DNA of 64,000 nucleotides from Candidatus Falkowbacteria bacterium GW2011_GWF2_43_32. Its GTDB lineage: Bacteria > Patescibacteriota > Patescibacteriia > Patescibacteriales > UBA12465. Of this stretch, positions 28,228 to 61,540 are shown in pieces. Position numbers and translations under genes: made by a program. How positions within the stretch are numbered: position 1 is the stretch's first letter; every line of letters begins with the position of its first letter. Under the pieces are notes generated by a model, which searched no databases, was not told the origin of the DNA, and saw nothing but the letters and a program-made list of their open reading frames with translations. Where the stretch lies: contig LCGL01000004.1 of NCBI GenBank assembly GCA_000999715.1, positions 44,289 through 108,288 on the forward strand. Reading direction: 5' to 3'.

Positions 28228-28291
28228 AAGGGTGTCTTTTAATGATAACAAATTCTTGCTAAAATTGGCAATTTCCGATAACATTAAAATA

Positions 28292-37941: not shown

Positions 37942-37984
37942 TTAAACCGAGCGTTCGGTGCCGACCCTTAATTTTTGGTCAAGT

Positions 37985-38821: not shown

Positions 38822-38839
38822 ACATCAATAAAAGATAAC

Positions 38840-39907
38840 ATGAATAAATCGGTCGGTATAATTTTGGTCAATTATAAAGATTACGCCACTCGTTTTTTGA
38901 AAGGGTGCCGCGATTCTTTGCGCGCTCAGGATTATCCGGCGGATTTGGTGCATGTTTATATCATTGATAACGCCTCCACTCCGGAATCGGCCGTTTATTT
39001 GAAAGAAAACTATCCCGAGGCGAGGATTATGCCGCGTGTCGACGGTAATTATTGCGCCGCCAACAATTTCGGTTGCCGACAGGCGATGGCGGACGCTTGT
39101 GAATATTTGGTCAGCGTCAACCTGGATACGGAGATGGCGCCGTCATGGTTGTCGGAATTGGTTAAAGCTTTGGAGGAAAATTCCGCGGCCGGCATCGCTC
39201 AGTCCAAAATTCTGCTTTATCCCAAGAGCGAAACGGAAAAAAATAATCCGCGCATCAACAGCTTGGGAAACGTTTTTCATTTTTTGGGTTTTGGTTTTAC
39301 TTCCGGCTACGGGCAAGCGAATCGGGAGATAGCCGGTTATCCGGAAATAAACGGTTATGCCAGCGGTTGTTCTTTAATGATCAGGGCGGACGTCTTTCGA
39401 CGAATCGGAGGCTATAATGAAGAATTTTACATGTATCATGACGATATTGAACTGAGTTTAAAAACAAAATTGGCCGGTTATAAAATCATTTTGGCTCCGC
39501 AATCGGTTATTTACCATAAATATGAGTTTTCTCGCAGTGTCCGGATGTTTTATTATATGGAGAGAAATCGTTATCTGACTTTGTTTATTTTTTATCCGAC
39601 TTATTTTTTATTTTTAATCGGTCTGCCGCTCATATTCATGGATCTCGGTATGTTTTTCTTTTCGCTTGTCGGCGGCCGGTTTAAAGAAGAACTGAAAATT
39701 TACGGATATTTTTGCCATTATAAAAATTATGTTAAAATTAAAGAAGAGCGGCAAAAGATAAAAGCTTTCTCGGTCGTATCGTTTGCCGACATCGCCCGTA
39801 GTTTTGCCGGTCGGATTGAGTTTCAGGAGATTGACAATCCGATTTTGAAATATCTGGTTAACCCCTTGTTGGCCGGGTATTGGCGTTTGGTTAAATTATT
39901 TTTTTGA
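38840..39907 (+). CDS. Family 2 glycosyltransferase with C-terminal TM segments
   Basis: VGIILVNYKD...YIIDNASTPES GT2 N-domain. C-terminal hydrophobic helices. Confidence 0.75.
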   Translation: MNKSVGIILVNYKDYATRFLKGCRDSLRAQDYPADLVHVYIIDNASTPESAVYLKENYPEARIMPRVDGNYCAANNFGCRQAMADACEYLVSVNLDTEMAPSWLSELVKALEENSAAGIAQSKILLYPKSETEKNNPRINSLGNVFHFLGFGFTSGYGQANREIAGYPEINGYASGCSLMIRADVFRRIGGYNEEFYMYHDDIELSLKTKLAGYKIILAPQSVIYHKYEFSRSVRMFYYMERNRYLTLFIFYPTYFLFLIGLPLIFMDLGMFFFSLVGGRFKEELKIYGYFCHYKNYVKIKEERQKIKAFSVVSFADIARSFAGRIEFQEIDNPILKYLVNPLLAGYWRLVKLFF

Positions 39908-39963
39908 CGTCGTGTCGGCCGAAAATTCTTTTTGAATTGCTTGGCCGGCAAATTACAGTTAAT

Positions 39964-40779
39964 ATGGATTTATCGATTATCATCGTCAATTATAAAAGCA
40001 AATCGAAGCTCGTCAATTGTTTGACATCTATTTTTCGGGCGCGTTCGGCCGGTTTCAATCAAGAAGTGATTGTTGTGGATAACGCTTCCGGTGACGATTT
40101 GGGCGATTTGAGCGAACGTTTTCCGTCGGTTAAATTTATTTTCAGTCCGCGGAATTTGGGCATGGGTGGAGGCAATAATTTGGGCATTAAAAATTCCACC
40201 GGCGAATTCATTTTGATACTTAATCCGGATACGATTATTCTGGACGAAGCGATTGCCGTTTTATTTGATTATTTGAAAGGTCATCCCGCGGTCGGCATGA
40301 TCGGTCCGAAGTTGGTATATCCCGATCGTTCTTTGCAGTTTTCTTGTTCTCGTTTTCCGCAATTTTTTACGCCGATTTTGCGCCGGACTTTTTTGGGTGA
40401 TTATTTCAAAGCCAGTCGCGACAGATTTACCATGAACGATTTTGACCATAATTCTTTGAAGGAGGTTGATTGGCTGATGGGTTCTTGTCTGCTATTTCGC
40501 AGTAAAACCGTTAACGCCGCCGGTGAAATTTTTATGCCCCGATTTGACGAACGTTATTTCATGTATTTTGAAGATACCGATTTGGGCCGTCAGATGAGAG
40601 CCGCCGGCTTGAAAACAATTTATAATCCTGAAGCGACAGTGGTTCACGATCATGCTCGCGAGAGCGCCAGATATCCTTGGTATTGGGCATTGTTGCGGGA
40701 TAAACTGGCTTGGCGGCATATCGCTTCCTGGCTTAAATATTTTTTGAAGTGGGGCTTGAAAGTTGAGAATCGCGAATAA
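39964..40779 (+). CDS. Family 2 glycosyltransferase
   Basis: MDLSIIIVNYKS...VVDNASGDD. A paralogue of the 37985 gene. Start at the internal Met. Confidence 0.75.
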   Translation: MDLSIIIVNYKSKSKLVNCLTSIFRARSAGFNQEVIVVDNASGDDLGDLSERFPSVKFIFSPRNLGMGGGNNLGIKNSTGEFILILNPDTIILDEAIAVLFDYLKGHPAVGMIGPKLVYPDRSLQFSCSRFPQFFTPILRRTFLGDYFKASRDRFTMNDFDHNSLKEVDWLMGSCLLFRSKTVNAAGEIFMPRFDERYFMYFEDTDLGRQMRAAGLKTIYNPEATVVHDHARESARYPWYWALLRDKLAWRHIASWLKYFLKWGLKVENRE

Positions 40780-40818
40780 AATGTTTAAGGTTTTGATTAA
40801 TATAATTCGATTAATTTT

Positions 40819-41691
40819 ATGAAAAAAATTAAAAAAGCGATTTTTCCGGTGGCGGGATTCGGTACGCGATTTTTGCCGGCGACCAAAGCTCAGCCCAAGG
40901 AAATGTTGCCGGTATTGGATAAACCGATCATCCAATATTTGGCGGAAGGGGCCGTGGCCGCCGGCATCGAAGAAATCATTTTCGTTACCGGACGCGGCAA
41001 GCGGGCGATTGAAGATCATTTTGATTACTCTTTCGAATTGGAAAAAAATTTGGTGGAGAAGAATAAGTTGGAATTGTTGAAGAAGGTCAGATCAATTGAG
41101 GGCTTGGCCAAAGTAACTTATGTTCGCCAACCGATTCCTCTCGGTGACGGTCATGCGCTTAATTGCGCGGCGCATTTGATCAGCGAAGACGAGGCGGTTT
41201 TGGTGTGGTTCGGCGATACGCTGTATGCCGATTGCGCCGCCGCCGCCAAACAGGTTATCGGAGTTTACGAAAAATACGGCGATACGGTGATCGGTTTATC
41301 CGAAGCGGCCGACGAGGATTTGAGCAAATTCGGTGTTATGGGCGGAGTTGATTTGGGCCAGGGTGTTTATGAAATCAGAGAATTTGTGGAGAAGCCGCCC
41401 TTGGGCACCGCGCCCTCTAATCTGGTGCAGGTTGGCCTTAACGTTATCGCTCCCGATGTCATCAAAACTTTAAAAGGCATGAAATCCGGAAAATCCGGAG
41501 AAATTCGTTTGGCGGACGCTTATAGCGAATTATTGGAACAAGGTCATTTGCTTTATGGTCGCAAGATAGACGGCGAATGGTTGGATACCGGAAACAAATT
41601 CGGTTTTCTCAAAGCCAATTTGAAATTCGGTTTGAAAGACAAAGAAATTAGCGCCGATCTTCAAAAATTAATCAACGAGTTGAGCAAATAA
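40819..41691 (+). CDS. galU: UTP-glucose-1-phosphate uridylyltransferase
   Basis: AIFPVAGFGTRFLPATKAQPKEMLPVLDKP signature. Confidence 0.85.
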   Translation: MKKIKKAIFPVAGFGTRFLPATKAQPKEMLPVLDKPIIQYLAEGAVAAGIEEIIFVTGRGKRAIEDHFDYSFELEKNLVEKNKLELLKKVRSIEGLAKVTYVRQPIPLGDGHALNCAAHLISEDEAVLVWFGDTLYADCAAAAKQVIGVYEKYGDTVIGLSEAADEDLSKFGVMGGVDLGQGVYEIREFVEKPPLGTAPSNLVQVGLNVIAPDVIKTLKGMKSGKSGEIRLADAYSELLEQGHLLYGRKIDGEWLDTGNKFGFLKANLKFGLKDKEISADLQKLINELSK

Positions 41692-43101: not shown

Positions 43102-44364
43102 TTAATCAAGACGTTGGATGTCGGCGCCTAATTTTTTGAGCCGTTCGTCCAATTTTTCGTAACCGCGATCCAACTGGTAGATATTGTCGATCTCTGTCGT
43201 GCCGTCGGCAATCAGCGCGGCAATTACCAAAGCGATGCCTGCCCGAATATCCGGGCTGATCAGTTTTTTGCCGTGCAAGCCGGTCGGTCCGGAAATGACC
43301 ACGCGATGCGGATCGCACATAATGATATTGGCGCCCATTTGAGAGAGCATGTCTGTCCAAATCAGCCGGCGATCGTAAATGGTTTCTTGAATCAGCGACA
43401 AGCCGTGTGCTTGGGTCATCAGGACCGCATAAGGTGATTGCAAATCAGTCGGAAAACCGGGATATTCATGAGTTTTAATATTGTAAGAACGAATGTTTTT
43501 CGACGGTTTCATCAATAGCCAGTCGGCGCCTTCCTCGTATTTTACGCCGATTTTATCAAAGACGGTCAGCAAACTTAGAATATGATCGGGATTGCAAGCG
43601 GTTATTTTTATTTCCGAATTGGTGGCCGCGGCCAACAAAGCGAAAGAACCGGTTTCGATTCGGTCGGGGATGATGTCAAAAGTGCCGGCGCTTAATTCGG
43701 TGACGCCCTCTATTTTAATGATTGGTGTTCCGGCGCCGCTGATTTTGGCTCCTTGTTCGTTTAAGTAGTCAGCCAAGGCTTTTATTTCCGGTTCCATGGC
43801 GCAGTTTTTCAAAATTGTTTCGCCGGGAATCAAACAAGCGGTCATCATCAAACTTTCCGTGACCGTGACGCTCACCGTAGAAAAAAAATAAGTCGTTCCT
43901 TGCAGTTTTTTTCCTTTGACCCGATAGCATTTGCCGTCTTCTTCTTCCACCGTCGCGCCGAAAGCCTTGAAACCTTCCAGAAACAGATCAATCGGCCGAC
44001 TGCCGGCGCCGATAACACAGCCGCCCGGGTGAGGGAAGCTGACTTCGCCGAAGCGGGCCAACAGCGGCCCGACAAACATGACCGATGTGCGAAATTTATC
44101 GGCCAGTTTCGAAGAGAGTTCGGTTTTATTGATATTTTTGGTATCAATTTCCGCGCTGGAACCGCGGTGAGTGATTTTTGCCCCCAAGTCGGTCAATAAA
44201 TCAAAAGATTTGCCGATATCTTCGATACCGGGAAGATTATTGACAGTGATAGTCTGCTCGGAGAGAATCGCGGCGGGGATAATTTTTAAAGCCGCGTTTT
44301 TGGCGCCGTTGATTTTGATTTCGCCGCTTAATCGGCGGCCGCCGGTAATGATGAATTTTGGCAT
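43102..44364 (-). CDS. murA: UDP-N-acetylglucosamine 1-carboxyvinyltransferase
   Basis: FIITGGRRLSGEIKINGAKNAAL N-terminus. 420 aa EPSP-synthase fold. Confidence 0.9.
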   Translation of the reverse strand: MPKFIITGGRRLSGEIKINGAKNAALKIIPAAILSEQTITVNNLPGIEDIGKSFDLLTDLGAKITHRGSSAEIDTKNINKTELSSKLADKFRTSVMFVGPLLARFGEVSFPHPGGCVIGAGSRPIDLFLEGFKAFGATVEEEDGKCYRVKGKKLQGTTYFFSTVSVTVTESLMMTACLIPGETILKNCAMEPEIKALADYLNEQGAKISGAGTPIIKIEGVTELSAGTFDIIPDRIETGSFALLAAATNSEIKITACNPDHILSLLTVFDKIGVKYEEGADWLLMKPSKNIRSYNIKTHEYPGFPTDLQSPYAVLMTQAHGLSLIQETIYDRRLIWTDMLSQMGANIIMCDPHRVVISGPTGLHGKKLISPDIRAGIALVIAALIADGTTEIDNIYQLDRGYEKLDERLKKLGADIQRLD

Positions 44365-47380: not shown

Positions 47381-47453
47381 AGCCATCTGTCGGATTTGAA
47401 CCGACGACCTGCTGTTTACAAGACAGCTGCTCTACCAGCTGAGCTAAGATGGC
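47381..47453 (-). tRNA. tRNA-Thr (anticodon UGU)
   Basis: Hand-folded cloverleaf: 7-bp acceptor GCCATCT/AGATGGC, D-arm GCTC/GAGC, anticodon stem GCTGT/ACAGC with loop CTTGTAA, T-arm GTCGG-TTCAAAT-CCGAC. No encoded CCA. Confidence 0.85.
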
Positions 47454-47485: not shown

Positions 47486-47561
47486 TGGTGCGCCCAGCAG
47501 GATTCGAACCTGCGACCATCTCCTTAAAAGGGAGCTGCTCTACCAACTGAGCTATAGGCGC
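47486..47561 (-). tRNA. tRNA-Lys (anticodon UUU), CCA encoded
   Basis: Hand-folded cloverleaf: acceptor GCGCCTA/TGGGCGC, anticodon loop CTTTTAA, T-arm GCAGG-TTCGAAT-CCTGC, 3' ACCA. Confidence 0.85.
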
Positions 47562-48370: not shown

Positions 48371-48389
48371 TAGTAGTCCCTAGGGGAAT
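48363..48389. repeat. Direct repeat copy B (tRNA-Glu 3' 16 nt + 11-nt trailer)
   Basis: See copy A at 48151-48177. Confidence 0.8.
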
Positions 48390-48445
48390 CGAACCCCTAT
48401 TACCAGGATGAGAACCTGGCGTCCTAACCGTTAGACGAAGGGACC
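48374..48445 (-). tRNA. tRNA-Glu (anticodon CUC as folded)
   Basis: Hand-folded cloverleaf: acceptor GGTCCCT/AGGGACT, D-arm GTCT/GGAC, anticodon stem CCAGG/CCTGG with loop TTCTCAT, T-arm AGGGG-TTCGATT-CCCCT. No encoded CCA. Confidence 0.8.
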
Positions 48446-51600: not shown

Positions 51601-53082
51601 TTATTTAACCGCTTCGCCCATATCGTAGTTATAGAGAAATTGCGAAGAAACGGTAACCACGTTTTGAGGATTATAATTTAATTTACTGAACATCGCATCA
51701 TCCATCGGTCGTTTTTTCCCGCCGGAAATAAGATAGACCAAAGGGAAATTTTGAGTTTTGACCAAAGTGCCTTCATCCAACAAAAGCGGAGTGGTGGTGG
51801 CGTAAGCGGTCAGCTCTTTGGTGGTTTTTTTGATAATTTGATCGCCGGCAAATTTTATGTCCAAAAGAACTTTATCCACGGGAGCTTTAATGCCGTTTTC
51901 TACGTAATAAATATCGTTGGTGCGACTGTCTTGCAGAAGCGCGCCGGTGACGTAAGTGGAAGTGGCATTAATGGTGGCACCGACTTTATAGCCGGCCAAG
52001 TCATCAATTGTTGCGGTTTCCACTTCTTCGGGATTGAAACCGAATTTTTTGAAAACCGTGGCGCTGGCGAAGGGCCGTTTTTCTTGATCAACCAACAGAT
52101 AGATGGTTTTGTCGGGCACTTGCACCAAAGAATAATTGGCGAATTTGATTTCCGAACCGATCGGGTAGTTGTCCAGCTCGCCGGAATCCACCTCAACGAT
52201 TTGTCCCGGCTTAAAGCGGGAAATATAGGAAGACCAATTGGAGAAATGCCTTTTCTGTCCGTTTTCTATCAGCCAAACCCGCGGATCGCCCGACGCTTTA
52301 ATGATAGAACCGTTCGGATAAAGTCGGGAAACTTTCGGGAAGTAACGGTTCCAAAGTTTATAGGTATTGTAATTTCCGTTGAAAACATGAGGGGTGTAAT
52401 TATATAGAGCGGCCGTGGCTTGATTGGCCGGTGTCACGATCATAGATTCTTGAGAGATGGTGCCGTAAGGGTTGCTGAAAGTATAAGTTTGGCCGGCTTT
52501 GTAAGAATAATTTTGCGGCTCTTGCATGTAAGCCAGAAATTGAAGAGCGGCGCTGTTCACTTGTTTGCCGAAACCTTTGTAGTATGGATTGCAGACCCAA
52601 TTGTCCGGACAGCCATAACCGGTCGCCCAATCCAAACGATTTTGCGACGGGTTGGCGTCCTCGATCAAGCTGGCTTCTTTTTGCAAAAGGACCAAGAGAA
52701 ATTTAGGATTGATGGTGGTGATATGTCGGCATTTGGTGAATTTTTCCGTCTCGGTCGGCGTTTCGCTAAGTGTAATACCCTCGCAATCGTAATTATTGTA
52801 GGCGGCGTCATGAATTATTTGAGCGGCGGTTTTTAGGTCGCCGTGAGTGTTGGTGGTGGTATAATTAGCCAAATAACTCCCTTTATTTTGGAGAAAAGTT
52901 TGGATTTCCGGCAGAGTCATACTGCTGTAATTCAGAATATCCCAATCTTCCAAAATACGATTAGGATTGAAGGCCGGATCAATGCCGGTTTGTGCTTGAG
53001 CGCCTTTAACTAGCGGAAAAAACATTAAAAACGCTATTATAAGCGAGATAGCTATATTTTTCATATTAAATTGGTTAGTCAT
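51601..53082 (-). CDS. Hypothetical secreted protein (493 aa)
   Basis: Signal peptide MKNIAISLIIAFLMFFPLVKGAQA. No catalytic motif recognised. Confidence 0.5.
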   Translation of the reverse strand: MTNQFNMKNIAISLIIAFLMFFPLVKGAQAQTGIDPAFNPNRILEDWDILNYSSMTLPEIQTFLQNKGSYLANYTTTNTHGDLKTAAQIIHDAAYNNYDCEGITLSETPTETEKFTKCRHITTINPKFLLVLLQKEASLIEDANPSQNRLDWATGYGCPDNWVCNPYYKGFGKQVNSAALQFLAYMQEPQNYSYKAGQTYTFSNPYGTISQESMIVTPANQATAALYNYTPHVFNGNYNTYKLWNRYFPKVSRLYPNGSIIKASGDPRVWLIENGQKRHFSNWSSYISRFKPGQIVEVDSGELDNYPIGSEIKFANYSLVQVPDKTIYLLVDQEKRPFASATVFKKFGFNPEEVETATIDDLAGYKVGATINATSTYVTGALLQDSRTNDIYYVENGIKAPVDKVLLDIKFAGDQIIKKTTKELTAYATTTPLLLDEGTLVKTQNFPLVYLISGGKKRPMDDAMFSKLNYNPQNVVTVSSQFLYNYDMGEAVK

Positions 53083-53127: not shown

Positions 53128-55767
53128 TTATCTATTTACTTTCATCACCACCGCTTCTTTTTCGCCCAGATCAATTTTAACTTTATCGCCTTCTTTGATT
53201 TTGCCCTCAATGATTTCCAGCGCCAATTCGTCCAAAATCATGGTTTGAATGATACGCTTCAAAGGCCGGGCGCCATAAGTGATGTCGTAGCCTTTATCCG
53301 CCAGCAATTTTTTGATTTTCGGACTGATTTTGATGGCGATATTTTTATTGCCCAAACGTTTCTCCACTTTCAACAATTCCAAATCGACGATTTTTTCCAA
53401 GGCTCCCGGAGTCAGGCTTTGGAATAAGACAATTTCGTCAATCCGGTTCAAGAATTCCAACTTGAAATGATTTTTTAGAATTTTATCTATTTTTTCTTTC
53501 ATTTCTTCGGCGCGCATTTTAACCGCTTGGTTTTTGTCGCCGGCGTCGGCGAAACCGATGGAGTATTGTTTGATGATTTCGTTGCCCAGATTGGAAGTCA
53601 TGATGACAATCGTATTTTTGAAATTGACCGTGCGACCCTTGGAATCGGTTAAACGGCCGTCATCCAAAATTTGAAGCAACATGTTGAACATATCCGGATG
53701 AGCTTTTTCCACTTCGTCAAACAAGACGACCGAATAAGGATGCCGGCGAATCTGTTCGGTCAGTTGTCCGCCTTCGTCATGGCCGACATATCCCGGAGGC
53801 GAGCCGATCAGTTTGGCGACCGAGTGTTTTTCCATAAATTCGCTCATGTCCAGACGGATGAGCGCTTTTTCGTCATCAAACATGAAACGGGCCAAGGCTT
53901 TGGCCAGCTCGGTTTTGCCGACGCCGGTCGGACCGACGAACAGGAAAGAGCCGATCGGTTTTTTTTCTTCGTTAATGCCGGCGCGAGAACGGCGCAGGGC
54001 ATTGGCGACCGCTTTGATCGCTTCGTCCTGGCCGACGACTTCTTTATTCAATTCACTTTCGGCATCGCTCAGTCTTTTGATTTCATCCTGCAGCATTTTA
54101 TTGACGGGAATGCCGGTCCAACGGGCCACGACTCGGGCGATATCTTCTTCGTCCACTTCTTCTTTCAAAATTCGTTGACCTTTTTTCTGGATTTTCAACA
54201 AGGCGGTTTGCGCTTCTTGAATCTTTTTTTCCAATTCCGGAATCAGGCTGTAACGGATTTTGGCCACTTCCGTCAGATCGGCGCCTTGGCGTTGAGAAAT
54301 TTCCGCTTTGATTTTCAAGTCTTCTATTTCTTTTTTGGATACGCGGATTTGGGAAATGATGTTTTTTTCGTTATTCCAATGCAATTCCAATTGGTCGGCT
54401 TTTTCTCGCAATTTGGCCAATTCGGCATTCAGCGTTCTCAGTTTCGGAGATTTTTTGTCTGCGGTCATCAAACCGGCCCGGTTCAATTCCAATTGTTTTA
54501 TTTTGCGTTTTAATTGATCCAATTCATCCGGCATGGAATCGATTTCCATGCGCAGGGAAGAGGTCGCTTCGTCTATCAAATCAACGGCCTTGTCCGGCAG
54601 AAAACGATCGCTGATATAGCGGTTGGACAATTTGGCGGCGGCAATGAGGGCGTCGTCGGTAATGCGAACACCATGATGGACTTCATATTTTTCCTTGAGT
54701 CCGCGCAACATATCGACCGTATCGTCCAAGCTCGGTTCGTTGACGTAAATCGGCTGGAAACGGCGTTCCAGGGCGGCGTCTTTTTCAATGTATTTTTGAT
54801 ATTCTTTAGTGGTGGTGGCGCCGATGGTGCGCAATTCGCCGCGAGCCAGCGCGGGTTTCAGCATATTGGAAGCATCCATGGAGCCTTCGGAAGCGCCGGC
54901 GCCGATTAAGGTATGGAGTTCGTCAATGAACAGGATAATTCGGCCGTTTTGCGCTTTGACTTCTTTCAAAACGGCTTTCAGGCGGTCTTCAAATTCGCCG
55001 CGAAATTTGGCGCCGGCAACCAGCGCGCCCAAATCAAGCGTCACGATTTCTTTTCTTTTTAAATTTTCCGGCACGTCGCCGGCGATGATTCTTTGCGCCA
55101 GACCTTCCACGATAGCGGTTTTGCCGGTACCGGCTTCGCCGATCAGAACCGGATTGTTTTTGGTGCGGCGGAGCAAGACTTGCATGATGCGACGCACTTC
55201 CTGGTCGCGGCCGACGACCGGATCCAATTTTTCTTGTCGCGCCAACTCGGTCAGATTGGTCGTGTATTTTTCCAAGACACGAAATTTGTTTTCCGGGAAA
55301 GGATCGTTGATCGTTTGATTGCCGCGCAGTTCTTTCAAGATGTTTTTCACGGCTTGATATTCTACTTTAAAGTCCAGCAAAACGCTTTGCGCCGGCGAGG
55401 AAACGCCGATGAGCGCCAAAAGGATATGTTCGGTGGAGATATATTCGTCGTTCAAGCCGTCGGCTTCTTTTTGGGCGCGCTCCAGAATCAGCGCGGTTTC
55501 GGCCGTGCCGGAAACGGCTTGCACCGGACCGGTTTGAACATTGATTCGGACGCGCGGCAATTTTTGAATGGCTCTGACGGCATGATCTTCAATCCGATCC
55601 GGATCTATTTTCATTTTTTCCAAAACCGGCTTGATCAAGCTCTCATTTTGTTGGAGTAAGGCCAGCAGAATATGCACCGCTTCAATATTTGTTTGACCGT
55701 GAGCGGAGGCAATCATTTGCGCGTTGATAATCGCTTCTTGCGATTTGTCCGTAAATTTATTGAACAT
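53128..55767 (-). CDS. clpB: Chaperone disaggregase ClpB
   Basis: 879 aa. Clp_N repeats, D1 Walker [10 protein letters not shown] and Walker B ILFIDELH, long coiled-coil middle domain, D2 Walker [10 protein letters not shown] and Walker [11 protein letters not shown]. Confidence 0.9.
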
Positions 55768-55993: not shown

Positions 55994-56407
55994 ATGAATC
56001 GTCTTTCGGCTGTTGGTTTTTTTATTTTATGCTATAATAATCTTATGATTAATCATAATTTTTTCACTTACGCCGGTAAAATTATCGGTCAAATTTTAGG
56101 AGAAATTTTGTATTTCCCGGTTTGGTGGTATACGGTCGGTTTCGCGCGTACCGCTAAGGGCGGTTGGCGTTTTTGGCGCGGTCGGGAAAGCTCTCTCGGT
56201 TTCGGCGTTTGGGTGAAAAATATTTTTGTGCCGATGTACGGCCAGCGCGATTTAGCCAGCCGGTTAATCAGTTTTGTCATGCGTTTGGTGCAGATAATTT
56301 ATCGCGGCGCGATTTTGTTGTTTTGGTTGGTGTTGATTTTGTTGTTTCTGGTTCTTTGGTTGGCCGGACCGATATTGTTATTGTTGGCGCTGGCTTTTCA
56401 AATTTGA
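55994..56407 (+). CDS. Hypothetical membrane protein
   Basis: 137 aa with 3-4 hydrophobic helices. Immediately upstream of the membrane-anchored Hsp100 paralogue. Confidence 0.45.
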   Translation: MNRLSAVGFFILCYNNLMINHNFFTYAGKIIGQILGEILYFPVWWYTVGFARTAKGGWRFWRGRESSLGFGVWVKNIFVPMYGQRDLASRLISFVMRLVQIIYRGAILLFWLVLILLFLVLWLAGPILLLLALAFQI

Positions 56408-56456: not shown

Positions 56457-59156
56457 ATGTCCGAAATGTCTTCAGAAAAGTTGACTTTTACCGAAGAGCA
56501 GAATGTCGGCGGTCGCGGCGTTTGGTTTTTGGGACGATTTTTATTTTGGGGCCGGCCGTTCAAGAAGACTTTGATCGGCTTGGCCAGAGCCAGTCGGAAA
56601 ATTAATTTCTTTTTATCTTTTTTGCGTTGGTTGATTATTTTTGCCGGTTGGGCGGCTTTCGGTTATTGGTTGTTTTTACATCAGGCGTTGTGGATTGAAA
56701 ATCCCGTCAGGCTGTTGTTTTTTTGGCGCACGCCCGATATTTTAATTTTCATTTTTTTGTTTTCTCTCTGGTTTGATTTATTCTCCGTCTATGAATCCAG
56801 CCAAACCAAGGCGGCCGTCAAGAAAATCAAGCGTTCGGATTTTGATCGGGAAGGGGATAAAAAGAAAAAGTTGCGGCGAGGCGGCAAAAAATACGAAGTG
56901 GCGAACGCTTATGCGCCGGAAACGTGGCGAGCGGTTGAAGACGCATATTTGTTGGCGGCGCGTCTGCGTCAGACCGAGACCTCGGTTATTCACCTTTTCC
57001 GAGTGTTGTTGAAAGATAAAAAAATTCAAAATTTATTTATTCGTTTGGATGCGGATGTCAAAAAATTGGTGGAATTGGTGGATCGTCATTTATTGTCGCC
57101 CGAAAAAACGGAGTTTAAAGGCCGAAGCGCTTTATCGCCGGTTTTGCAAGAAGTTTTGGTTTTGGCTTTCGTCAACGCTTACGAACTGCGACAGGATAGC
57201 GTTGATGTTTTGAATGTGGTTTCTTTTTGCGCCGGCAAAGATCCGGTTCTTCGGGAAATTCTGTATGAATTGGAAATTGACGAAGATAAAATCAACAATA
57301 CCGTCGCTTGGTTTCGGGTCAATCGCCGCTTGGCGGAGAGTTATCGGTCTTACAGCCGTTCGGCTTTGTTAAAACCGGGCAACAATATGAATCGTTCTTA
57401 TACCGCCATCGCCACGCCGACTTTGGATCATTTTTCGCATGATTTGACCGTGCGGGCGAAATACGGAGATTTAAATATTTGCGTCGGCCGAAAAAGAGAA
57501 ATTTCTTCCATTTTTGAAGCTTTTTCCGGCGGCCATAACGGCGTTTTGTTGGTCGGTCCGGTCGGCGTCGGCAAGAGCGCCATTATCGACGGCTTGGCGC
57601 AATTGATGGTGGAAGAAAACGTGCCGGATTTTTTCAAAGACCGGCGCTTGGTGGAGTTGGACGTTTCGCGTTTGTTGGCCGGAGCCGCTCCGGCCGAAGC
57701 GCAGGAAAGATTATTGCTCAGTTTGAACGAAGTGAGCCGTTCGGGCAATATTATCTTATATATTGATAACATTGAAAATTTGATCGGCATCAGCGGCGGT
57801 GCCGAAGAAAGTTTGGATATCTCCGAAGTTTTGGCCGAAGCGATCGGGCGCAGAAATTTATATTGTCTGGCGGCGGCCACCACGGAAAATTATGCGCGGT
57901 ATATTGAAAACAAGGCGATCGGCAATGTCATGACGACGGTCGCGGTCAAAGAACCGGAAACCAACGAAGCGATTCAAATTTTGGAAAGCAAGGTGGGACT
58001 TTTAGAATCAAAATATGACATTTATATCGTCTACGGCGCTTTGGAAGCGGCCGTAACCATGTCCGATCGTTATTTGCATGATAAATTTTTGCCGTTCAAA
58101 GCTCTGGACTTATTGGAAAAAGCGGCCATCATTACCGGCAAGAACGCGCGGAATAATCCGGAAAAAAGTTTTTGCGGTCGGGAAGAGGTGGCCGCGGCCA
58201 TCAGTGAAATTACCGGTATTCCGGCCAGCAAAGCCAGCTTGTCGGAGGGTCAGAAACTTTTAAATTTGGAAGATGAAATTCATCAGCGCTTGGTCGATCA
58301 AGAAGAAGCGGTCCGAGCGGTGGCGGCCAGTTTGCGTCGCGCGCGCGCCGAAATGAAAGACAGCAAGCGGCCGATCGCCAGTTTCTTGTTTTTGGGACCG
58401 ACCGGCGTCGGTAAAACGGAATTGGCCAAATCAGTCAGCCAAGTTTATTTCGGCGATGAAGATTACTTGATTCGTTTGGATATGAGCGAATATCAAGACA
58501 CGGGCAGTGTGCGGAAAATGATCGGTGACGTGGACGGGACGCTCGGCTACTTGATCGAAGCGGTCCGCAAAAAACCTTTTTCCTTGATTTTGTTGGATGA
58601 AATCGAAAAAGCCAATCCCGATATTCTGAATTTGTTTTTACAATTATTGGATGACGGACGCTTGACCGACGGTCAGGGGCGAACGATCAGTTTTGCCGAA
58701 TCCATCATTATCGCCACTTCCAATATCGGCGCCGTTTATATTCAAGAGCAGATTGTCGTCAAAACGCCGCTTAATGTCATCAAACAGGGCTTGATCGATC
58801 AAGAGTTGAATAAATATTTGCGTCCGGAATTGATCAATCGGTTTGACGGAATTATTGTTTTCAAACCTTTGAGCGAAGAAGACGTTTTTGCCATCGCGAC
58901 TTTGATGCTGAAAAAAATCAAGAAGAATTTGGCGGCCAAGGGTATCGGCCTGAAGGCCGATAAGGACGGCGTGACCATTTTGGCGCACGAGGGCTATGAT
59001 CCGAAATTCGGCGCTCGTCCTTTGCGGCGCTTGTTGCAGGACAGAGTGGAAAATCCCATCGCCAATAAAATTTTGGCCGGAGAGCTGAAGCGTCGCGATA
59101 CGATTGTCATTAACAATCGGGCGGAAATAGAAGTGGACCAAGGAAAAGAATTGTAA
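56457..59156 (+). CDS. Membrane-anchored Hsp100/Clp-family AAA+ ATPase with degenerate first ATPase domain
   Basis: About 130 N-terminal residues with 3-4 TM helices. Clp_N-like repeats. D1 Walker A GPVGVGKSA, but Walker B is ILYIDNIEN (DN not DE) and the Arg-finger segment is IGNVMT (no Arg). D2 is canonical ([19 protein letters not shown]). No obvious middle coiled-coil or IGF loop. Confidence 0.8.
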   Translation: MSEMSSEKLTFTEEQNVGGRGVWFLGRFLFWGRPFKKTLIGLARASRKINFFLSFLRWLIIFAGWAAFGYWLFLHQALWIENPVRLLFFWRTPDILIFIFLFSLWFDLFSVYESSQTKAAVKKIKRSDFDREGDKKKKLRRGGKKYEVANAYAPETWRAVEDAYLLAARLRQTETSVIHLFRVLLKDKKIQNLFIRLDADVKKLVELVDRHLLSPEKTEFKGRSALSPVLQEVLVLAFVNAYELRQDSVDVLNVVSFCAGKDPVLREILYELEIDEDKINNTVAWFRVNRRLAESYRSYSRSALLKPGNNMNRSYTAIATPTLDHFSHDLTVRAKYGDLNICVGRKREISSIFEAFSGGHNGVLLVGPVGVGKSAIIDGLAQLMVEENVPDFFKDRRLVELDVSRLLAGAAPAEAQERLLLSLNEVSRSGNIILYIDNIENLIGISGGAEESLDISEVLAEAIGRRNLYCLAAATTENYARYIENKAIGNVMTTVAVKEPETNEAIQILESKVGLLESKYDIYIVYGALEAAVTMSDRYLHDKFLPFKALDLLEKAAIITGKNARNNPEKSFCGREEVAAAISEITGIPASKASLSEGQKLLNLEDEIHQRLVDQEEAVRAVAASLRRARAEMKDSKRPIASFLFLGPTGVGKTELAKSVSQVYFGDEDYLIRLDMSEYQDTGSVRKMIGDVDGTLGYLIEAVRKKPFSLILLDEIEKANPDILNLFLQLLDDGRLTDGQGRTISFAESIIIATSNIGAVYIQEQIVVKTPLNVIKQGLIDQELNKYLRPELINRFDGIIVFKPLSEEDVFAIATLMLKKIKKNLAAKGIGLKADKDGVTILAHEGYDPKFGARPLRRLLQDRVENPIANKILAGELKRRDTIVINNRAEIEVDQGKEL

Positions 59157-59263: not shown

Positions 59264-60835
59264 ATGTTTTACTTCGGAGTTTTTATAGCGGTTTTGGCTT
59301 TAACGGCGATTCTCACTTTATTGGTCAGAAGAATCGCTCTTTATTTTGAAATTCTGGACAAACCGGATCAAGGGATTTTGTCCGCCAGAAAAATTCATCG
59401 ACGGGCAACGCCGCTTTTGGGCGGGGTGGCGATTTTTATCGGTTATTTTGCCGGTCTTTTTTTCTTTTGGGAACGGTTTTTGTCCGGTGATCTTCATTGG
59501 CGACATTTAATCGGTTTTGCCGTCGGCGCTTTATTGATCATTATCGGCGGCATTTTGGACGACAAATATAATTTGCGGCCGCGCCGACAAATTATTTTTC
59601 CGCTCTTGGCTATCGTCGCGCTGATTTTGGGCGGCGTGGAAATCGCCAAAATCACCAATCCTTTCGGCGGATTTTTGGATTTGCAATCTTTGTTCTTTAT
59701 CTCGCCGCTTTTGATCGCCCTTTGGCTTTTGGGCATGATGTATACGACCAAATTATTGGATGGCGTGGACGGATTGGTTTCGGGCGTGAGCGTAATCGGC
59801 GGATTCATTATTTTTTTATTTACTTTAACGACACGGTATTATCAGCCCGACATCGCTTTGGCGGCAATTCTTTTTGCCGGCGCTTGCACCGGCTTTTTGA
59901 TTTTTAACTGGCATCCGGCGAAAATTTTTTTGGGCGAAGGCGGCTCTTTGTTGTTGGGTTATATCTTGGGGGTTTTAGCCGTTATTTCCGGCGGCAAAAT
60001 CGCCATTGCGCTTTTAATCATGGGTATTCCGGTTTTGGATGTCGCCTGGACGATTATTCGCCGTTTGTTGAAGAAAAAAAATCCTTTTCGTTTCGCCGAT
60101 CGGGAACATCTGCATCATCGTTTGTTGGCCTTGGGATTGAGTCAAAGAAAAACGGTGTTGGTTTTTTATTTTTTATCCCTTACTTTCGGATTGAGCGGTT
60201 TGTTTTTGCAAAGCCGCGGCAAATTTTGGGCCTTGATTATTTTAACGGTCATTATGCTCGCGCTGGTCATCAGTTTTTGGTATCTTGATCGGCGCCGGGA
60301 AAAAAATAAACCGAAGTTATTGTTGCACATTTGTTGCGCTCCTTGCGGTACCTATATCAGTCGCGATCGTCTGGCGGCAAAATATGATTTGACTTGGTAT
60401 TTTTATAATTCCAATTTGAATACTCGGGCGGAATATGACAAGCGCCTTTATTATGTGGAGATGATGGCGAAGAAATTTAATTTTTCTTTGCTGGTCGAAC
60501 CTTATGAGCATGCGGCCTGGCAAGAAAAGACTGCCGGCCATGCCGCCGATCCGGAACGCGGCGCGCGGTGTTTGATTTGTTATCGCGATCGTTTGGAAAA
60601 AACGGCTCGCTTGGCAAAAGAGCGGGGCTTTGATCTTTTCGGCACGACTTTGTTGGTCAGTCCTTATAAAGACAGCGCCGCCATTCGGTCCATCAGCCGT
60701 AATTTAGCCAAGGAATTCGGTATTGAATTTTTAGATGAAGATTTTCAGGCCGCTGACGGTTATCGTCGCTCGCAGGAAGTGGCTAAAGAGCTGGGTCTTT
60801 ATCGTCAAAAATATTGCGGTTGCGAATATTCTTAA
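59264..60835 (+). CDS. Fusion protein: MraY/WecA-family polyprenyl-phosphate glycosyl-1-phosphate transferase (N) + QueH/DUF208 epoxyqueuosine reductase-like domain (C)
   Basis: N-terminal 340 aa: 10 TM helices, HRRATPLLGGVAI and ILDDKYN motifs of GT family 4. C-terminal 180 aa: LLLHICCAPCGTY ... CLICYRDR ... YCGCEY, the HxCCAPC and terminal Cys-cluster signature of DUF208/QueH. Single uninterrupted 523-codon frame. Confidence 0.7.
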   Translation: MFYFGVFIAVLALTAILTLLVRRIALYFEILDKPDQGILSARKIHRRATPLLGGVAIFIGYFAGLFFFWERFLSGDLHWRHLIGFAVGALLIIIGGILDDKYNLRPRRQIIFPLLAIVALILGGVEIAKITNPFGGFLDLQSLFFISPLLIALWLLGMMYTTKLLDGVDGLVSGVSVIGGFIIFLFTLTTRYYQPDIALAAILFAGACTGFLIFNWHPAKIFLGEGGSLLLGYILGVLAVISGGKIAIALLIMGIPVLDVAWTIIRRLLKKKNPFRFADREHLHHRLLALGLSQRKTVLVFYFLSLTFGLSGLFLQSRGKFWALIILTVIMLALVISFWYLDRRREKNKPKLLLHICCAPCGTYISRDRLAAKYDLTWYFYNSNLNTRAEYDKRLYYVEMMAKKFNFSLLVEPYEHAAWQEKTAGHAADPERGARCLICYRDRLEKTARLAKERGFDLFGTTLLVSPYKDSAAIRSISRNLAKEFGIEFLDEDFQAADGYRRSQEVAKELGLYRQKYCGCEYS

Positions 60836-60841
60836 AATAAA

Positions 60842-61540
60842 ATGATCATAAAAATGTTTAAAACTATTTTTTCTGGCTTGGCCGTTTTGGCTATAGTTTT
60901 TTTGTTCGCGAAAGGTGTTGCCGCACAAGTAGCGACGGATACCGACGGCGACGGTTATAACGATGAAGTGGAATTAGCGCACGGATATTCGCCGTATAAT
61001 GCGGAGCCGGTAAAAATTGAAGAGAGTGATGCGGACGGCGACGGATTAAGCGATTATTGGGAATTGAAATTTAAGACCGACGCTTTAAATGCGGATTCCG
61101 ACGGCGATACTTATTTGGACGGACGGGAAGTGGATTATGCTTTCGATCCTTTATCGTCAACCGCGGAAAGATTGCCGCGGCGAATTGAACTTGATTTGAA
61201 AAATCAGCAATTGGTTTATTTGGTGGCCGAACAGCCTTGGAAAAGTTTTACGGTATCTACGGGCAAACCGAGCATGCCGACAGCCACGGGCACTTTCAAA
61301 ATCATCAATAAGATCGAGAAAGCCTGGTCCGGCACTTATAAGCTGTGGATGCCGTATTGGTTGGGTTTGGGAAACGGCAGTTTCGGCATTCATGAACTAC
61401 CGATTTGGCCGAGCGGTTATCGCGAAGGCGAAGATCATCTTGGTCAGCCGGTTTCGCACGGTTGCATCCGTTTGGGGATTGGCGCGGCGCAATATGTATA
61501 TGATCGGATGGATGTCGGCTCGGAAGTGATAATAAGATAA
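60842..61540 (+). CDS. L,D-transpeptidase (YkuD domain) with N-terminal Asp-rich calcium-binding-like repeats
   Basis: C-terminal YkuD catalytic motif SHGCIRL. N-terminal region has three DxDxDG-type repeats (DTDGDGYND, DADGDGLSD, DSDGDTYLD) resembling thrombospondin type-3 repeats. Confidence 0.8.
   Translation: MIIKMFKTIFSGLAVLAIVFLFAKGVAAQVATDTDGDGYNDEVELAHGYSPYNAEPVKIEESDADGDGLSDYWELKFKTDALNADSDGDTYLDGREVDYAFDPLSSTAERLPRRIELDLKNQQLVYLVAEQPWKSFTVSTGKPSMPTATGTFKIINKIEKAWSGTYKLWMPYWLGLGNGSFGIHELPIWPSGYREGEDHLGQPVSHGCIRLGIGAAQYVYDRMDVGSEVIIR

What the first reader, a model, noticed from the sequence alone, without database searches (positions are those of the whole stretch)
59264..60835. In-frame fusion of a WecA/MraY-type lipid-carrier glycosyltransferase to a QueH (DUF208) epoxyqueuosine-reductase-like domain
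The N-terminal 10-TM phosphoglycosyl transferase and the C-terminal CCAPC/terminal-Cys-cluster domain are normally encoded by unrelated genes. One is an envelope enzyme, the other a cytoplasmic Fe-S tRNA-modification enzyme. The frame is continuous with no stop or obvious frameshift between the domains. Possible readings are a true fusion, a recent gene fusion through loss of a stop, or a DUF208 domain repurposed for a redox role at the membrane.
Basis: seen in the sequence. Interest (0 to 1): 0.6.

Follow-up and report, generated by a model that had tools for sequence, protein, structure and literature searches.

The report
WecA-like transferase fused to QueH
In a clade of tiny groundwater bacteria (Candidatus Falkowbacteria, CPR/Patescibacteria), a real and conserved gene joins a membrane enzyme that starts cell-surface sugar chains to a complete copy of QueH, the iron-sulfur enzyme that finishes the tRNA base queuosine; it arose when a three-gene operon collapsed, and it most likely just tethers an ordinary QueH to the membrane.

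Summary
ORF 59264-60835 (+) encodes 523 aa: an 11-TM WecA/TagO-type Glycos_transf_4 domain (aa 1-341), a 9-residue basic linker, and a full-length QueH domain (aa 351-523; Pfam 1.3e-58; TM-score 0.88 to T. maritima QueH). It is not an artefact. More than 120 protein clusters (53-74% identical, Falkowbacteria/Patescibacteria) share the architecture and synteny, and pN is far below pS in both halves. Catalytic motifs of both domains are intact.

New here: related CPR contigs show every intermediate state at the same locus, always downstream of a ClpB-like gene. These are three overlapping genes GT4|VanZ|QueH, then GT4|VanZ-QueH, then GT4-QueH; some relatives also fuse the downstream YkuD transpeptidase. 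The fused QueH is orthologous to the QueH of a Falkowbacteria queA-queH-tgt operon.

Most likely each domain keeps its ancestral activity and QueH simply works at the inner membrane face.

Unresolved:
- I could not show Tgt/QueA in the same genome.
- A near-invariant QueH 'DFKK' loop is 'DFQA' in this clade, apparently compensated by a new Lys516.

The architecture is already auto-annotated in NCBI, but no paper in the searched library describes it. I rate it a new variant of known kinds, of moderate interest.

The parts
59264..60835 (+). Whole fusion gene (523 aa plus stop): WecA/TagO-like GT4 - linker - QueH
   Evidence: ORF list and sequence; Pfam; 100% identical to P0001 = KKT13076.1, Candidatus Falkowbacteria bacterium GW2011_GWF2_43_32
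59264..60286 (+). GT4 / PNPT domain, aa 1-341, 11 predicted TM helices, N-terminus out and C-terminus in
   Evidence: Pfam PF00953; NCBIfam best match is WecA, below the equivalog cutoff; hydropathy and positive-inside loops; AF2 helices; Foldseek to MraY/GPT
59558..59563 (+). D99-D100, cytoplasmic Mg2+/catalytic DD motif of PNPT enzymes
   Evidence: Invariant in 123 fusion and about 115/116 standalone orthologues
59753..59776 (+). L164-L171, LLDGVDGL motif (D166, D169)
   Evidence: Invariant
60107..60118 (+). H282-L-H-H285, WecA-type 'HIHH'-like motif in the large basic cytoplasmic loop
   Evidence: H282/H284 invariant, H285 in 116/123 fusions; the role in UDP-HexNAc recognition comes from my knowledge of E. 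coli WecA
60287..60313 (+). Linker D342-P350 (DRRREKNKP), basic; joins the TM11 helix directly to the native N-terminus of QueH (KLLLHICCAPC)
   Evidence: Alignment; AF2 helix 317-347 followed by strand 351-356; junctions in 6 loci, and the A7 run is not conserved
60314..60832 (+). QueH domain, aa 351-523, full length
   Evidence: Pfam 1.3e-58; phmmer against PDB QueH 1.5e-27; Foldseek TM 0.88 / 1.8 A to 7LC5
60332..60346 (+). C357-C358-A-P-C361 (CCAPC) metal-ligand motif
   Evidence: 120/120 fusion clusters CCAPC; aligns to HVCCAPD of T. maritima QueH, where PDB holds C9S and D13N mutants
60569..60580 (+). C436-x-x-C439 preceded by E431-x-G433-x-R435
   Evidence: Invariant in fusions and in 67 standalone QueH
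60740..60760 (+). D493-F-Q-A-A-D-G499: clade-specific replacement of the near-invariant QueH loop D-F-K-K-x-G-G
   Evidence: Standalone K 97% / K 99%; fusions Q 106/120 and A/S 97/120
60800..60823 (+). Y513-R-Q-K516-Y-C518-G-C520: C-terminal ligand motif, with clade-specific K516 (N/D in other QueH)
60842..61540 (+). Downstream TSP3 + YkuD L,D-transpeptidase gene with an N-terminal signal-anchor; 6-nt gap, same reading frame; fused to the QueH end in some relatives
   Evidence: Pfam; triple fusions P0007, P0034, P0104, P0115, P0116, P0120, P0122/L005
56457..59156 (+). Upstream ClpB-like AAA+ gene with a hydrophobic N-terminal region; conserved positional marker of the locus in all architectural states
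   Evidence: Pfam; synteny

Best explanation
This is a genuine bifunctional gene of a Falkowbacteria/Patescibacteria clade. The N-terminal 11-TM domain is the lineage's housekeeping WecA/TagO-type UDP-HexNAc:polyprenyl-phosphate HexNAc-1-phosphate transferase, which starts an undecaprenyl-phosphate-linked envelope glycan. Its cytoplasmic C-terminus continues through about 9 basic residues into a complete QueH, a [4Fe-4S] plus Fe enzyme. QueH most likely still reduces epoxyqueuosine-34 to queuosine-34 on tRNA(Asp/Asn/His/Tyr), but does so tethered at the inner face of the membrane. The fusion arose by compaction of an ancestral operon of three overlapping genes, GT4|VanZ|QueH: VanZ was lost and QueH was welded by its very N-terminus onto GT4, just as VanZ-QueH fusions formed in sister lineages. 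The two activities are probably chemically independent; the fusion gives co-expression and a membrane anchor. Shown here: domain identities, fold, topology, conserved catalytic residues, purifying selection, clade-wide conservation, the evolutionary series, and orthology to a Q-operon QueH. Inferred: both enzymatic activities, tRNA access to a tethered QueH, and the presence of Tgt/QueA in the same genome.
For: Both domains score far above Pfam thresholds. The fold matches QueH 7LC5 (TM 0.88) and MraY/GPT. The 11-TM, C-terminus-in topology places QueH in the cytoplasm. All PNPT motifs (D99/D100, LLDGVDGL, N215, HLHH) are identical in the fusions and in 116 standalone CPR orthologues. All 7 Cys are kept, as are E390, R394, E431/G433/R435, R443, S466-P-x-K469 and Y513-R-Q, which are at least 85-100% conserved in 67 standalone QueH including the crystallised enzyme. 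pN is 0.20-0.33 against pS of 0.64-0.83 in both halves. More than 120 clusters share the architecture, and synteny is conserved. The evolutionary series at the same ClpB-like-marked locus is: L108/L143 GT4|VanZ|QueH (4-nt and 20-23-nt overlaps); L104 and L010/11 GT4|VanZ-QueH; L001-3 GT4|VanZ; window GT4-QueH. In the NJ tree the core fusion clade is monophyletic in 87/100 bootstraps, and the QueH of the queA-queH-tgt operon of a Falkowbacteria MAG (L016) nests among the VanZ/GT4-associated QueHs. Tgt is widespread in Falkowbacteria and Patescibacteria, and in some Falkowbacteria tgt has no queH beside it (L092/93, L096-98), so those genomes would need a QueH encoded elsewhere. A published survey found no bacteria that keep queA/queG/queH without tgt (PMC10723273).
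Against: Tgt/QueA were not demonstrated in any fusion-bearing genome. None lies in the 64-kb window or 10 kb beyond either end. Contig-length and accession-block matching between fusion and Tgt hits was negative but underpowered. The near-invariant QueH loop D-F-K-K-x-G-G, probably a phosphate/tRNA-binding loop, is D-F-Q-A-[DN]-[DN]-G in this clade. A 9-residue tether places the active site very close to the membrane, and whether a tRNA anticodon loop can reach it was not testable (the model gave no coordinates or PAE). The GT4-VanZ-QueH neighbourhood is conserved over deep divergence, which in gene-context logic hints at a functional link rather than independence.
Confidence: 0.6

Rival explanations
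1. Functional coupling or neofunctionalisation. In the GT4/VanZ-associated lineage the QueH domain works at the membrane on something other than oQ-tRNA, or in concert with the envelope enzymes. Examples would be a free or imported 7-deazaguanine precursor, or an oxygenated polyprenyl or sugar intermediate, using the same [4Fe-4S]-Fe reductive deoxygenation chemistry.
For: QueH has been fused to membrane partners more than once: VanZ-QueH in many contigs, and GT4-QueH possibly twice, since all GT4-QueH are monophyletic in only 2/100 bootstraps. The overlapping three-gene operon GT4|VanZ|QueH is conserved at one locus across lineages whose GT4 is only 55-62% identical. The clade-specific switch from a basic to an acidic loop (DFKK to DFQA[DN][DN]), together with S507A and Y517F, lies next to the predicted substrate edge of the sheet. 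No Q-pathway gene lies nearby, and Tgt/QueA are not proven in the same genome.
Against: Every metal ligand and nearly every family-invariant residue is retained. Loss of K496 coincides with gain of K516 (DFKD/DFKN/DFRA/DFQA with YRQK, versus [DN]FKK with YRQ[DN]), which looks like charge compensation and hence a conserved function. VanZ-linked QueHs and the early-branching GT4 fusions (L015, L109) keep the canonical motifs. The Q-operon QueH of L016 nests inside the group, so there is no old paralogue split. A close relative (L017) has the same QueH as a soluble protein.
Confidence: 0.2
2. The QueH domain acts mainly as an Fe-S redox, iron or oxygen sensor (or as a docking module) that regulates the GT4 transferase, not as an enzyme.
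For: Fe-S domains often serve as sensors. The rigid, very short connection from the TM11 helix to the first QueH strand would allow conformational coupling. The acidic loop 493-499 could face the basic GT4 cytoplasmic loop 253-296, which has 10 K/R; this is inference only.
Against: Residues that matter for catalysis or substrate binding rather than cluster binding (E390, R394, E431, R435, R443, S466, K469, Y513, R514, Q515) remain invariant, which a pure sensor would not need. GT4 shows no fusion-specific changes in its cytoplasmic loops compared with 116 standalone orthologues.
Confidence: 0.08
3. The two halves are made as separate proteins from one ORF, by an internal start, programmed frameshifting or transcriptional slippage at the A7 run in the linker, or by proteolysis.
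For: The window has an A7 run at 60300-60306, with a TAA two codons later in the +2 frame, and TTG codons at L353/L354.
Against: The A-run and the off-frame stop are absent from L005 and L014, so they are not conserved. No conserved Met or start lies at the junction in 39 aligned sequences. The linker is conserved only in being short and basic.
Confidence: 0.05
4. Sequencing or assembly artefact (an indel removing a stop) or a decaying pseudogene fusion.
For: A homopolymer run sits near the junction.
Against: The same protein occurs in independent assemblies. The architecture is present in more than 120 clusters from NCBI, JGI, ENA and Logan, on contigs up to 979 kb. Both halves are under purifying selection.
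Confidence: 0.01

Closest known systems
QueH (DUF208, PF02677/IPR003828), the cobalamin-independent epoxyqueuosine reductase; T. maritima structures 7LC5, 7LC7, 9DEU
   Same: The match to the family profile is full length. The predicted fold is the same (TM 0.88, 1.8 A). CCxxC / CxxC / CxC ligands and almost all family-invariant residues are present, and sequence identity to the crystallised enzyme is 32%.
   Different: It is covalently attached by its N-terminus to an 11-TM membrane enzyme. It has Cys where T. maritima has Asp13, as most QueH do. The loop D-F-K-K-x-G-G is replaced by D-F-Q-A-A-D-G, and K516 is gained. It is not encoded next to queA/tgt.
WecA / TagO-type polyprenyl-phosphate N-acetylhexosamine-1-phosphate transferases (PNPT superfamily, Pfam Glycos_transf_4; relatives MraY and eukaryotic GPT/DPAGT1)
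   Same: It has the DD motif, LLDGVDGL, NxxPAKIFLGEGGS and the HLHH loop. It has 11 TM helices with a cytoplasmic C-terminus, as reported for E. coli WecA (my knowledge). WecA is the best NCBIfam hit, and the fold matches MraY/GPT.
   Different: It falls below the equivalog cutoffs for ECA WecA (118 vs 326 bits) and MraY (71.5 vs 192). It has Glu instead of Asp in the FLGEGGS motif, which is typical of CPR orthologues (90/116). It carries a 180-aa soluble Fe-S domain at its C-terminus.
VanZ-QueH fusions and the GT4|VanZ|QueH operon of sister CPR lineages
   Same: The QueH is orthologous (49-53% identical, same clade). The junction is the same, a short basic linker joined to [KR]P[KR]LLLH[IV]CC. 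The locus sits downstream of the same ClpB-like gene and the same GT4.
   Different: The membrane anchor is a 4-TM VanZ-like domain rather than GT4. The canonical DFKK / LSK / YRQ[ND]YCGC motifs are retained. In some genomes the three genes are still separate (L108, L143) or QueH is soluble (L017).
Canonical queA-queH-tgt operon QueH of CPR and DPANN (L016 here; DPANN clusters in PMC8204110)
   Same: It is the same enzyme family, and in the tree the L016 QueH groups with the fused and VanZ-linked QueHs.
   Different: It is a soluble 187-aa protein encoded between queA and tgt.

Membership tests
QueH (PF02677 / IPR003828) | Full-length match to the family HMM above the curated threshold | tested here: met
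   198.4 bits against a gathering score of 23.5, profile positions 1-172 of 175
QueH (PF02677 / IPR003828) | Conserved cysteine ligands for the [4Fe-4S] cluster and adjacent iron (CCxxC/D ... CxxC ... CxC) | tested here: met
   C357, C358, C361, C436, C439, C518 and C520 are invariant in 39 aligned fusions; CCAPC in 120/120 clusters; 2 of 122 have CAC instead of CGC
QueH (PF02677 / IPR003828) | QueH fold | tested here: met
   Foldseek to 7LC5: TM 0.88, rmsd 1.8 A, 176 columns; model pLDDT mostly above 85 in this domain
QueH (PF02677 / IPR003828) | Other near-invariant residues of bona fide QueH (as defined here from 67 standalone sequences) | tested here: inconclusive
   About 45 of 52 positions are kept. 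The exceptions cluster in the loop and helix 493-517: KK to QA, S507A, N/D516K, and Y517F in 90% of the clade, although the window itself keeps Y517
QueH (PF02677 / IPR003828) | Genome also encodes Tgt and QueA, which make the oQ-tRNA substrate | tested here: inconclusive
   Absent from the window and 10 kb beyond either end. Present in other Falkowbacteria (L016, L092/93, L096-98). Co-occurrence in a fusion-bearing genome could not be established
QueH (PF02677 / IPR003828) | Epoxyqueuosine reductase activity | not testable with these tools
   Needs a biochemical assay or genetic complementation
PNPT / Glycos_transf_4 (WecA, TagO, MraY, GPT) | Family HMM above threshold and PNPT fold | tested here: met
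   PF00953 103 bits against 27; Foldseek to MraY and GPT, probability 1.0, target TM 0.65-0.79
PNPT / Glycos_transf_4 (WecA, TagO, MraY, GPT) | Cytoplasmic catalytic carboxylates (DD, DxxD) and the NxxPAxxF[LM]G[DE]xGS motif | tested here: met
   D99, D100, D166, D169, N215 and E225 are invariant in 123 fusion sequences
WecA (ECA) equivalog TIGR02380 | Score above the curated equivalog cutoff | tested here: not met
   118.1 bits against a cutoff of 326. It is WecA/TagO-like, not an ECA WecA equivalog, and its sugar specificity is unknown
MraY equivalog TIGR00445 | Score above the curated cutoff | tested here: not met
   71.5 bits against a cutoff of 192; this is not the peptidoglycan MraY
WecA-type topology | 11 TM helices with a cytoplasmic C-terminus and an HIHH-like motif in the last large cytoplasmic loop | tested here: met
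   Hydropathy, positive-inside loops and AF2 helices; HLHH at 282-285. This is a prediction only

The most novel reading that the evidence does not exclude
In this CPR lineage QueH has been recruited into a membrane-associated module with a WecA-like transferase and a VanZ-like protein, first as an overlapping operon and then by repeated N-terminal fusions. There its [4Fe-4S]-Fe reductive chemistry would serve a non-tRNA or membrane-coupled role, for example processing a salvaged 7-deazaguanine precursor at the point of uptake or modifying a lipid-linked envelope intermediate. The basic-to-acidic change of the 493-499 loop would mark the change of substrate.
Probability: 0.15. Interest if true: 0.75.

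Novelty: new variant of a known kind. Interest (0 to 1): 0.42.

Why it matters
(1) Annotation. NCBI names these 520-545-aa proteins either 'epoxyqueuosine reductase QueH' or 'UDP-GlcNAc:undecaprenyl-phosphate GlcNAc-1-phosphate transferase'. Either name hides one of the two functions in metabolic reconstructions of CPR genomes.

(2) Biology. This would be a tRNA-modification Fe-S enzyme covalently tethered to the membrane. QueH has been anchored to a membrane protein in at least two different ways (via VanZ and via GT4), in an operon with envelope genes. That raises a testable question: does the last step of queuosine synthesis in these ultra-small symbionts happen at the membrane, perhaps near precursor uptake or an electron donor, or has QueH chemistry been co-opted?

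(3) Evolution. The locus preserves every intermediate of a gene-fusion pathway: three overlapping genes, then two, then one, then a four-domain protein including YkuD. It is a clean natural example of operon compaction in reduced genomes.

(4) Practical use. A PNPT with a rigidly attached 20-kDa soluble domain could serve as a natural fiducial for cryo-EM of WecA-type enzymes.

Tried and rejected
- Artefact or pseudogene: rejected by conservation and pN far below pS.
- Programmed frameshift or transcriptional slippage at the A7 run: the run and the off-frame stop are not conserved.
- Fusion-specific changes in GT4 cytoplasmic loops that might mark an interdomain interface: none found; the differences are lineage-typical TM residues.
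- tgt/queA in the window, in all fusion loci, and 10 kb beyond the window ends: none.
- preQ1 riboswitch or other Q-related RNA in the window: none; only three tRNAs.
- Co-occurrence of Tgt with the fusion, by matching 'longest contig' lengths and NCBI accession blocks between fusion clusters and two Tgt searches. No match, but CPR Tgt identities plateau near 60%, so the 120-row lists sample only a fraction.
- AFDB fold search for the architecture: library not available.
- Literature: the two primary QueH papers (Zallot 2017, Li 2021) are not held. No held paper mentions a GT4-QueH or VanZ-QueH fusion.
- Interdomain geometry (is the QueH active site accessible to tRNA, and are positions 496 and 516 adjacent?): not testable because the structure tool returns no coordinates or PAE.
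Full report

Yes. A single ORF runs from 59264 to 60835 on the + strand (523 aa). Pfam finds Glycos_transf_4 (aa 83-242, E 1.7e-29) and a full-length QueH domain (aa 352-523, profile 1-172 of 175, E 1.3e-58). NCBIfam places the N-terminal part nearest WecA, then MraY, but far below both equivalog cutoffs. phmmer against PDB sequences aligns aa 352-523 end to end with T. maritima QueH at 1.5e-27.

An AlphaFold2 model built from 39 homologues (mean pLDDT 84.5) matches QueH 7LC5 with TM 0.88 and rmsd 1.8 A, and matches MraY/GPT structures with target TM 0.65-0.79.

Hydropathy, the positive-inside distribution and the model helices give 11 TM segments. The N-terminus is outside. All known catalytic loops are inside: DD 99-100, LLDGVDGL 164-171, NxxPAKIFLGEGGS 215-228 and HLHH 282-285. 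The C-terminus is cytoplasmic. The last TM helix (317-347) runs almost directly into the first beta-strand of QueH (351-356). The linker DRRREKNKP is nt 60287-60313. So the topology suits a cytoplasmic Fe-S domain.

**2. Artefact?**

No. The protein is 100% identical to KKT13076.1 of Candidatus Falkowbacteria bacterium GW2011_GWF2_43_32, and a cluster-mate at 90% identity or more comes from an independent UBA assembly (HBA36955.1, GCA_003489845.1). All 120 best database clusters (62-74% identical) carry both Pfam domains. They come from NCBI, JGI, ENA and Logan, on contigs up to 979 kb. More divergent fusions, 53-60% identical, turned up in species-representative genomes and metagenomes (L012-L015, L099, L109/110, L114, L125).

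At 50% clustering the architecture collapses to two or three representatives. The next-closest GT4 proteins (59% identity or less) are standalone proteins of about 350 aa. The fusion therefore marks one fairly tight clade.

In both halves pN (0.20-0.33) is far below pS (0.64-0.83, saturated). Mean pairwise identity is 70% for GT4 and 61% for QueH.

**3. Are the domains intact?**

GT4: D99, D100, K163, D166, D169, N215, E225, H282 and H284 are invariant in 123 fusion sequences and essentially so in 116 standalone CPR orthologues. Glu in FLGEGGS is the CPR norm. No fusion-specific change appears in the cytoplasmic loops.

QueH: all seven cysteines (CCAPC, CxxC, CGC) are kept, together with E390, R394, E431/G433/R435, R443, S466-P-x-K469 and Y513-R-Q. 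These positions are 85-100% conserved in 67 standalone QueH, including the crystallised enzyme.

One region departs from the family pattern. The loop after the fifth strand is D-F-K-K-x-G-G in ordinary QueH (K 97%, K 99%). In 120 fusion clusters it is D-F-Q-[A/S]-[D/N]-[D/N]-[G/A], and in the window it is DFQAADG (aa 493-499). S507A, N/D516K and Y517F accompany this change, although the window keeps Y517.

Across architectures, wherever the second Lys is lost (DFKD, DFKN, DFRA, DFQA), position 516 has become Lys (YRQK). Sequences that keep [DN]FKK have YRQ[DN]. I read this as relocation of a positive charge, which would mean the function is conserved. That is an inference from what is essentially one evolutionary event, and I had no coordinates to check it.

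**4. Where did the fusion come from?**

Gene neighbourhoods give an unusually complete answer.

- Conserved synteny in the window and in other fusion-bearing contigs: ClpB (-), a small ORF, a ClpB-like AAA+ gene (+), GT4-QueH, TSP3/YkuD, a beta-propeller protein, then PDZ, PGK, enolase.
- Closest standalone GT4 (P0124, 59% identical): it sits in the same synteny and is followed by a 124-aa VanZ gene.
- Nearest non-GT4 relatives of the QueH domain (P0253, P0270): these are VanZ-QueH fusions with the same junction, a short basic linker joined to [KR]P[KR]LLLHICC.
- L010/L011 and L104: a GT4 (55-62% identical to the window's) overlaps the start of VanZ-QueH by 4-11 nt.
- L108 and L143: three separate genes, GT4|VanZ|QueH, overlapping by 4 nt and 20-23 nt. 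Each was confirmed by Pfam, and both loci lie directly downstream of the ClpB-like gene.
- Other states: VanZ|QueH (L116, L124), VanZ-QueH elsewhere in the genome (L006-9, L100-107), and a soluble QueH in the same malic-enzyme synteny as VanZ-QueH (L017).

The window's gene is therefore the end state of operon compaction. VanZ was lost and the native N-terminus of QueH was joined to the C-terminus of GT4.

Compaction continues in some relatives. The downstream YkuD gene is 6 nt away and in the same frame in the window. It is fused on in P0007, P0034, P0104, P0115, P0116, P0120 and P0122. The L005 junction reads CGCEFS-KKDAG-[TM helix]-TSP3-YkuD, which is topologically coherent.

**5. Is the fused QueH the Q-pathway enzyme?**

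A Falkowbacteria MAG (L016) carries queA-queH-tgt back to back. Several other CPR loci have queH next to queA.

In an NJ tree of QueH domains (172 columns, 100 bootstraps):
- The core GT4-QueH clade is monophyletic in 87/100.
- All GT4-QueH together are monophyletic in only 2/100. L015 and L109 keep VanZ-type motifs, so a second independent fusion is possible.
- The L016 operon QueH nests among the VanZ- and GT4-associated QueHs.

So there is no old paralogue split. The same enzyme has moved between genomic locations.

Tgt is widespread in Patescibacteria, including named Falkowbacteria. In some Falkowbacteria tgt has no queH beside it (L092/93: response regulator - ferredoxin - tgt - ileS; L096-98), so any QueH must be encoded elsewhere. 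A survey of bacteria found no case where queA/queG/queH persist without tgt (PMC10723273).

**6. What I could not show.**

I could not demonstrate tgt or queA in a genome that carries the fusion. Neither gene is in the window, in 10 kb beyond either end, or in any fusion locus. Matching contig lengths and accession blocks between fusion clusters and Tgt hits was negative. The test is weak, however, because CPR Tgt identities plateau near 60% and only 120 of about 7,000 hits are listed.

I also could not examine interdomain geometry, because the structure tool returns no coordinates.

**7. Interpretation.**

Best supported (about 0.6): this is a bifunctional protein in which both halves keep their ancestral chemistry. 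A WecA/TagO-like transferase initiates an undecaprenyl-phosphate-linked glycan. The window also encodes BacA/UppP, MurA, three GT2s, a sugar nucleotidyltransferase, YceG and YkuD. A QueH reduces oQ-tRNA while tethered to the inner face of the membrane. The fusion itself is most simply a by-product of compaction of overlapping genes in a reduced genome.

The main rival (about 0.2) is that QueH in this module has a membrane-coupled or altered function. Three things support it: the deep conservation of the GT4-VanZ-QueH neighbourhood, the repeated anchoring of QueH to membrane proteins, and the divergent 493-499 loop.

A sensor or regulator role (about 0.08), separate expression of the halves (about 0.05; the A7 run is not conserved) and an artefact (about 0.01) are less likely.

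**8. Comparison with what is known, and novelty.**

Each domain is a clear member of a known family (see the membership table). The GT4 half is neither an ECA WecA equivalog nor MraY.

The architecture is already visible in public annotation. NCBI calls these proteins 'epoxyqueuosine reductase QueH' or a GlcNAc-1-P transferase. No paper in the searchable library describes a GT4-QueH or VanZ-QueH fusion or the three-gene operon. The two primary QueH papers are not held, so I cannot exclude a mention there.

I class it as a new variant of known kinds, of moderate interest (0.42). The fusion is real and ancient within its clade, and its origin can be traced stepwise. Its most probable function, though, is the sum of two ordinary ones.

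Noticed in passing
window 60842-61540 (+); L005 8001-10355; L099 4825-5583: The TSP3 + YkuD L,D-transpeptidase gene starts 6 nt after the fusion's stop codon, in the same frame. At least seven relatives encode a single GT4-QueH-TM-TSP3-YkuD protein of 730-794 aa, and in L099 the two genes overlap by 29 nt. The result is a four-domain protein that spans the membrane 12 times, with enzymes on both faces.
   Followed up: partly
window 56457-59156 (+) and 53128-55767 (-): A divergent ClpB-like AAA+ protein (899 aa) has hydrophobic segments in its first ~120 residues rather than a clear Clp_N domain, so it may be membrane-anchored. It sits directly upstream of GT4 in every architectural state of the locus, back to back with a canonical ClpB.
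   Followed up: partly
L016 2005-3216; P0271-P0449 (alignment): CPR Tgt proteins form a distinctive subfamily. They have TPFFMPDATR and GYGFGARP[IV]D in place of the GGLAVGE substrate-pocket motif, and they have no CxCxxC zinc-binding motif (…SKLPELREYSRAYLHHL). Their base specificity (preQ1 or queuine) may differ from that of E. coli Tgt.
   Followed up: no
L092 1587-1769 and L093 1263-1445: In two Falkowbacteria MAGs a 60-aa 2x[4Fe-4S] ferredoxin gene occupies the position upstream of tgt-ileS where queA-queH sit in L016. It could be an electron donor for a QueH encoded elsewhere.
   Followed up: no
L001 1791-2987: A WecG/TagA-type glycosyltransferase is fused to a NUDIX domain (398 aa) a few genes upstream of the standalone GT4. 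This is another unusual envelope-enzyme fusion in a sister CPR lineage, and it suggests the GT4 is TagO-like (GT4 followed by the WecG/TagA step).
   Followed up: no
window 17617-18453 (-), 22907-23782, 37958-41691, 43102-44364 (-): The window holds an undecaprenyl-phosphate / cell-wall toolkit: BacA/UppP, YceG/MltG, three GT2 glycosyltransferases plus a sugar nucleotidyltransferase, and MurA.
   Followed up: partly
window 26194-28377 (-), 28193-30067 (+), 51601-53082 (-), 55994-56407 (+): Three large ORFs (727, 624 and 493 aa) and one conserved small ORF (137 aa) have no Pfam match. The 493-aa and 137-aa genes are syntenic in relatives (L005, L180).
   Followed up: no
window 47381-47453, 47489-47561, 48374-48445 (-): Three tRNA genes were found; no riboswitch or other Rfam family reached threshold anywhere in the window.
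   Followed up: no
P0048, P0088, L125: A few fusion members have CAC instead of CGC in the C-terminal ligand motif (YRQKFCACE). The Gly between the two Cys ligands is otherwise invariant across QueH.
   Followed up: no
P0138, P0150 (about 521-525 aa): Other CPR GT4 orthologues of similar length carry a different C-terminal extension: an extra TM helix plus a roughly 130-aa domain that is not QueH. The C-terminus of this GT4 therefore seems prone to acquiring appended domains.
   Followed up: no
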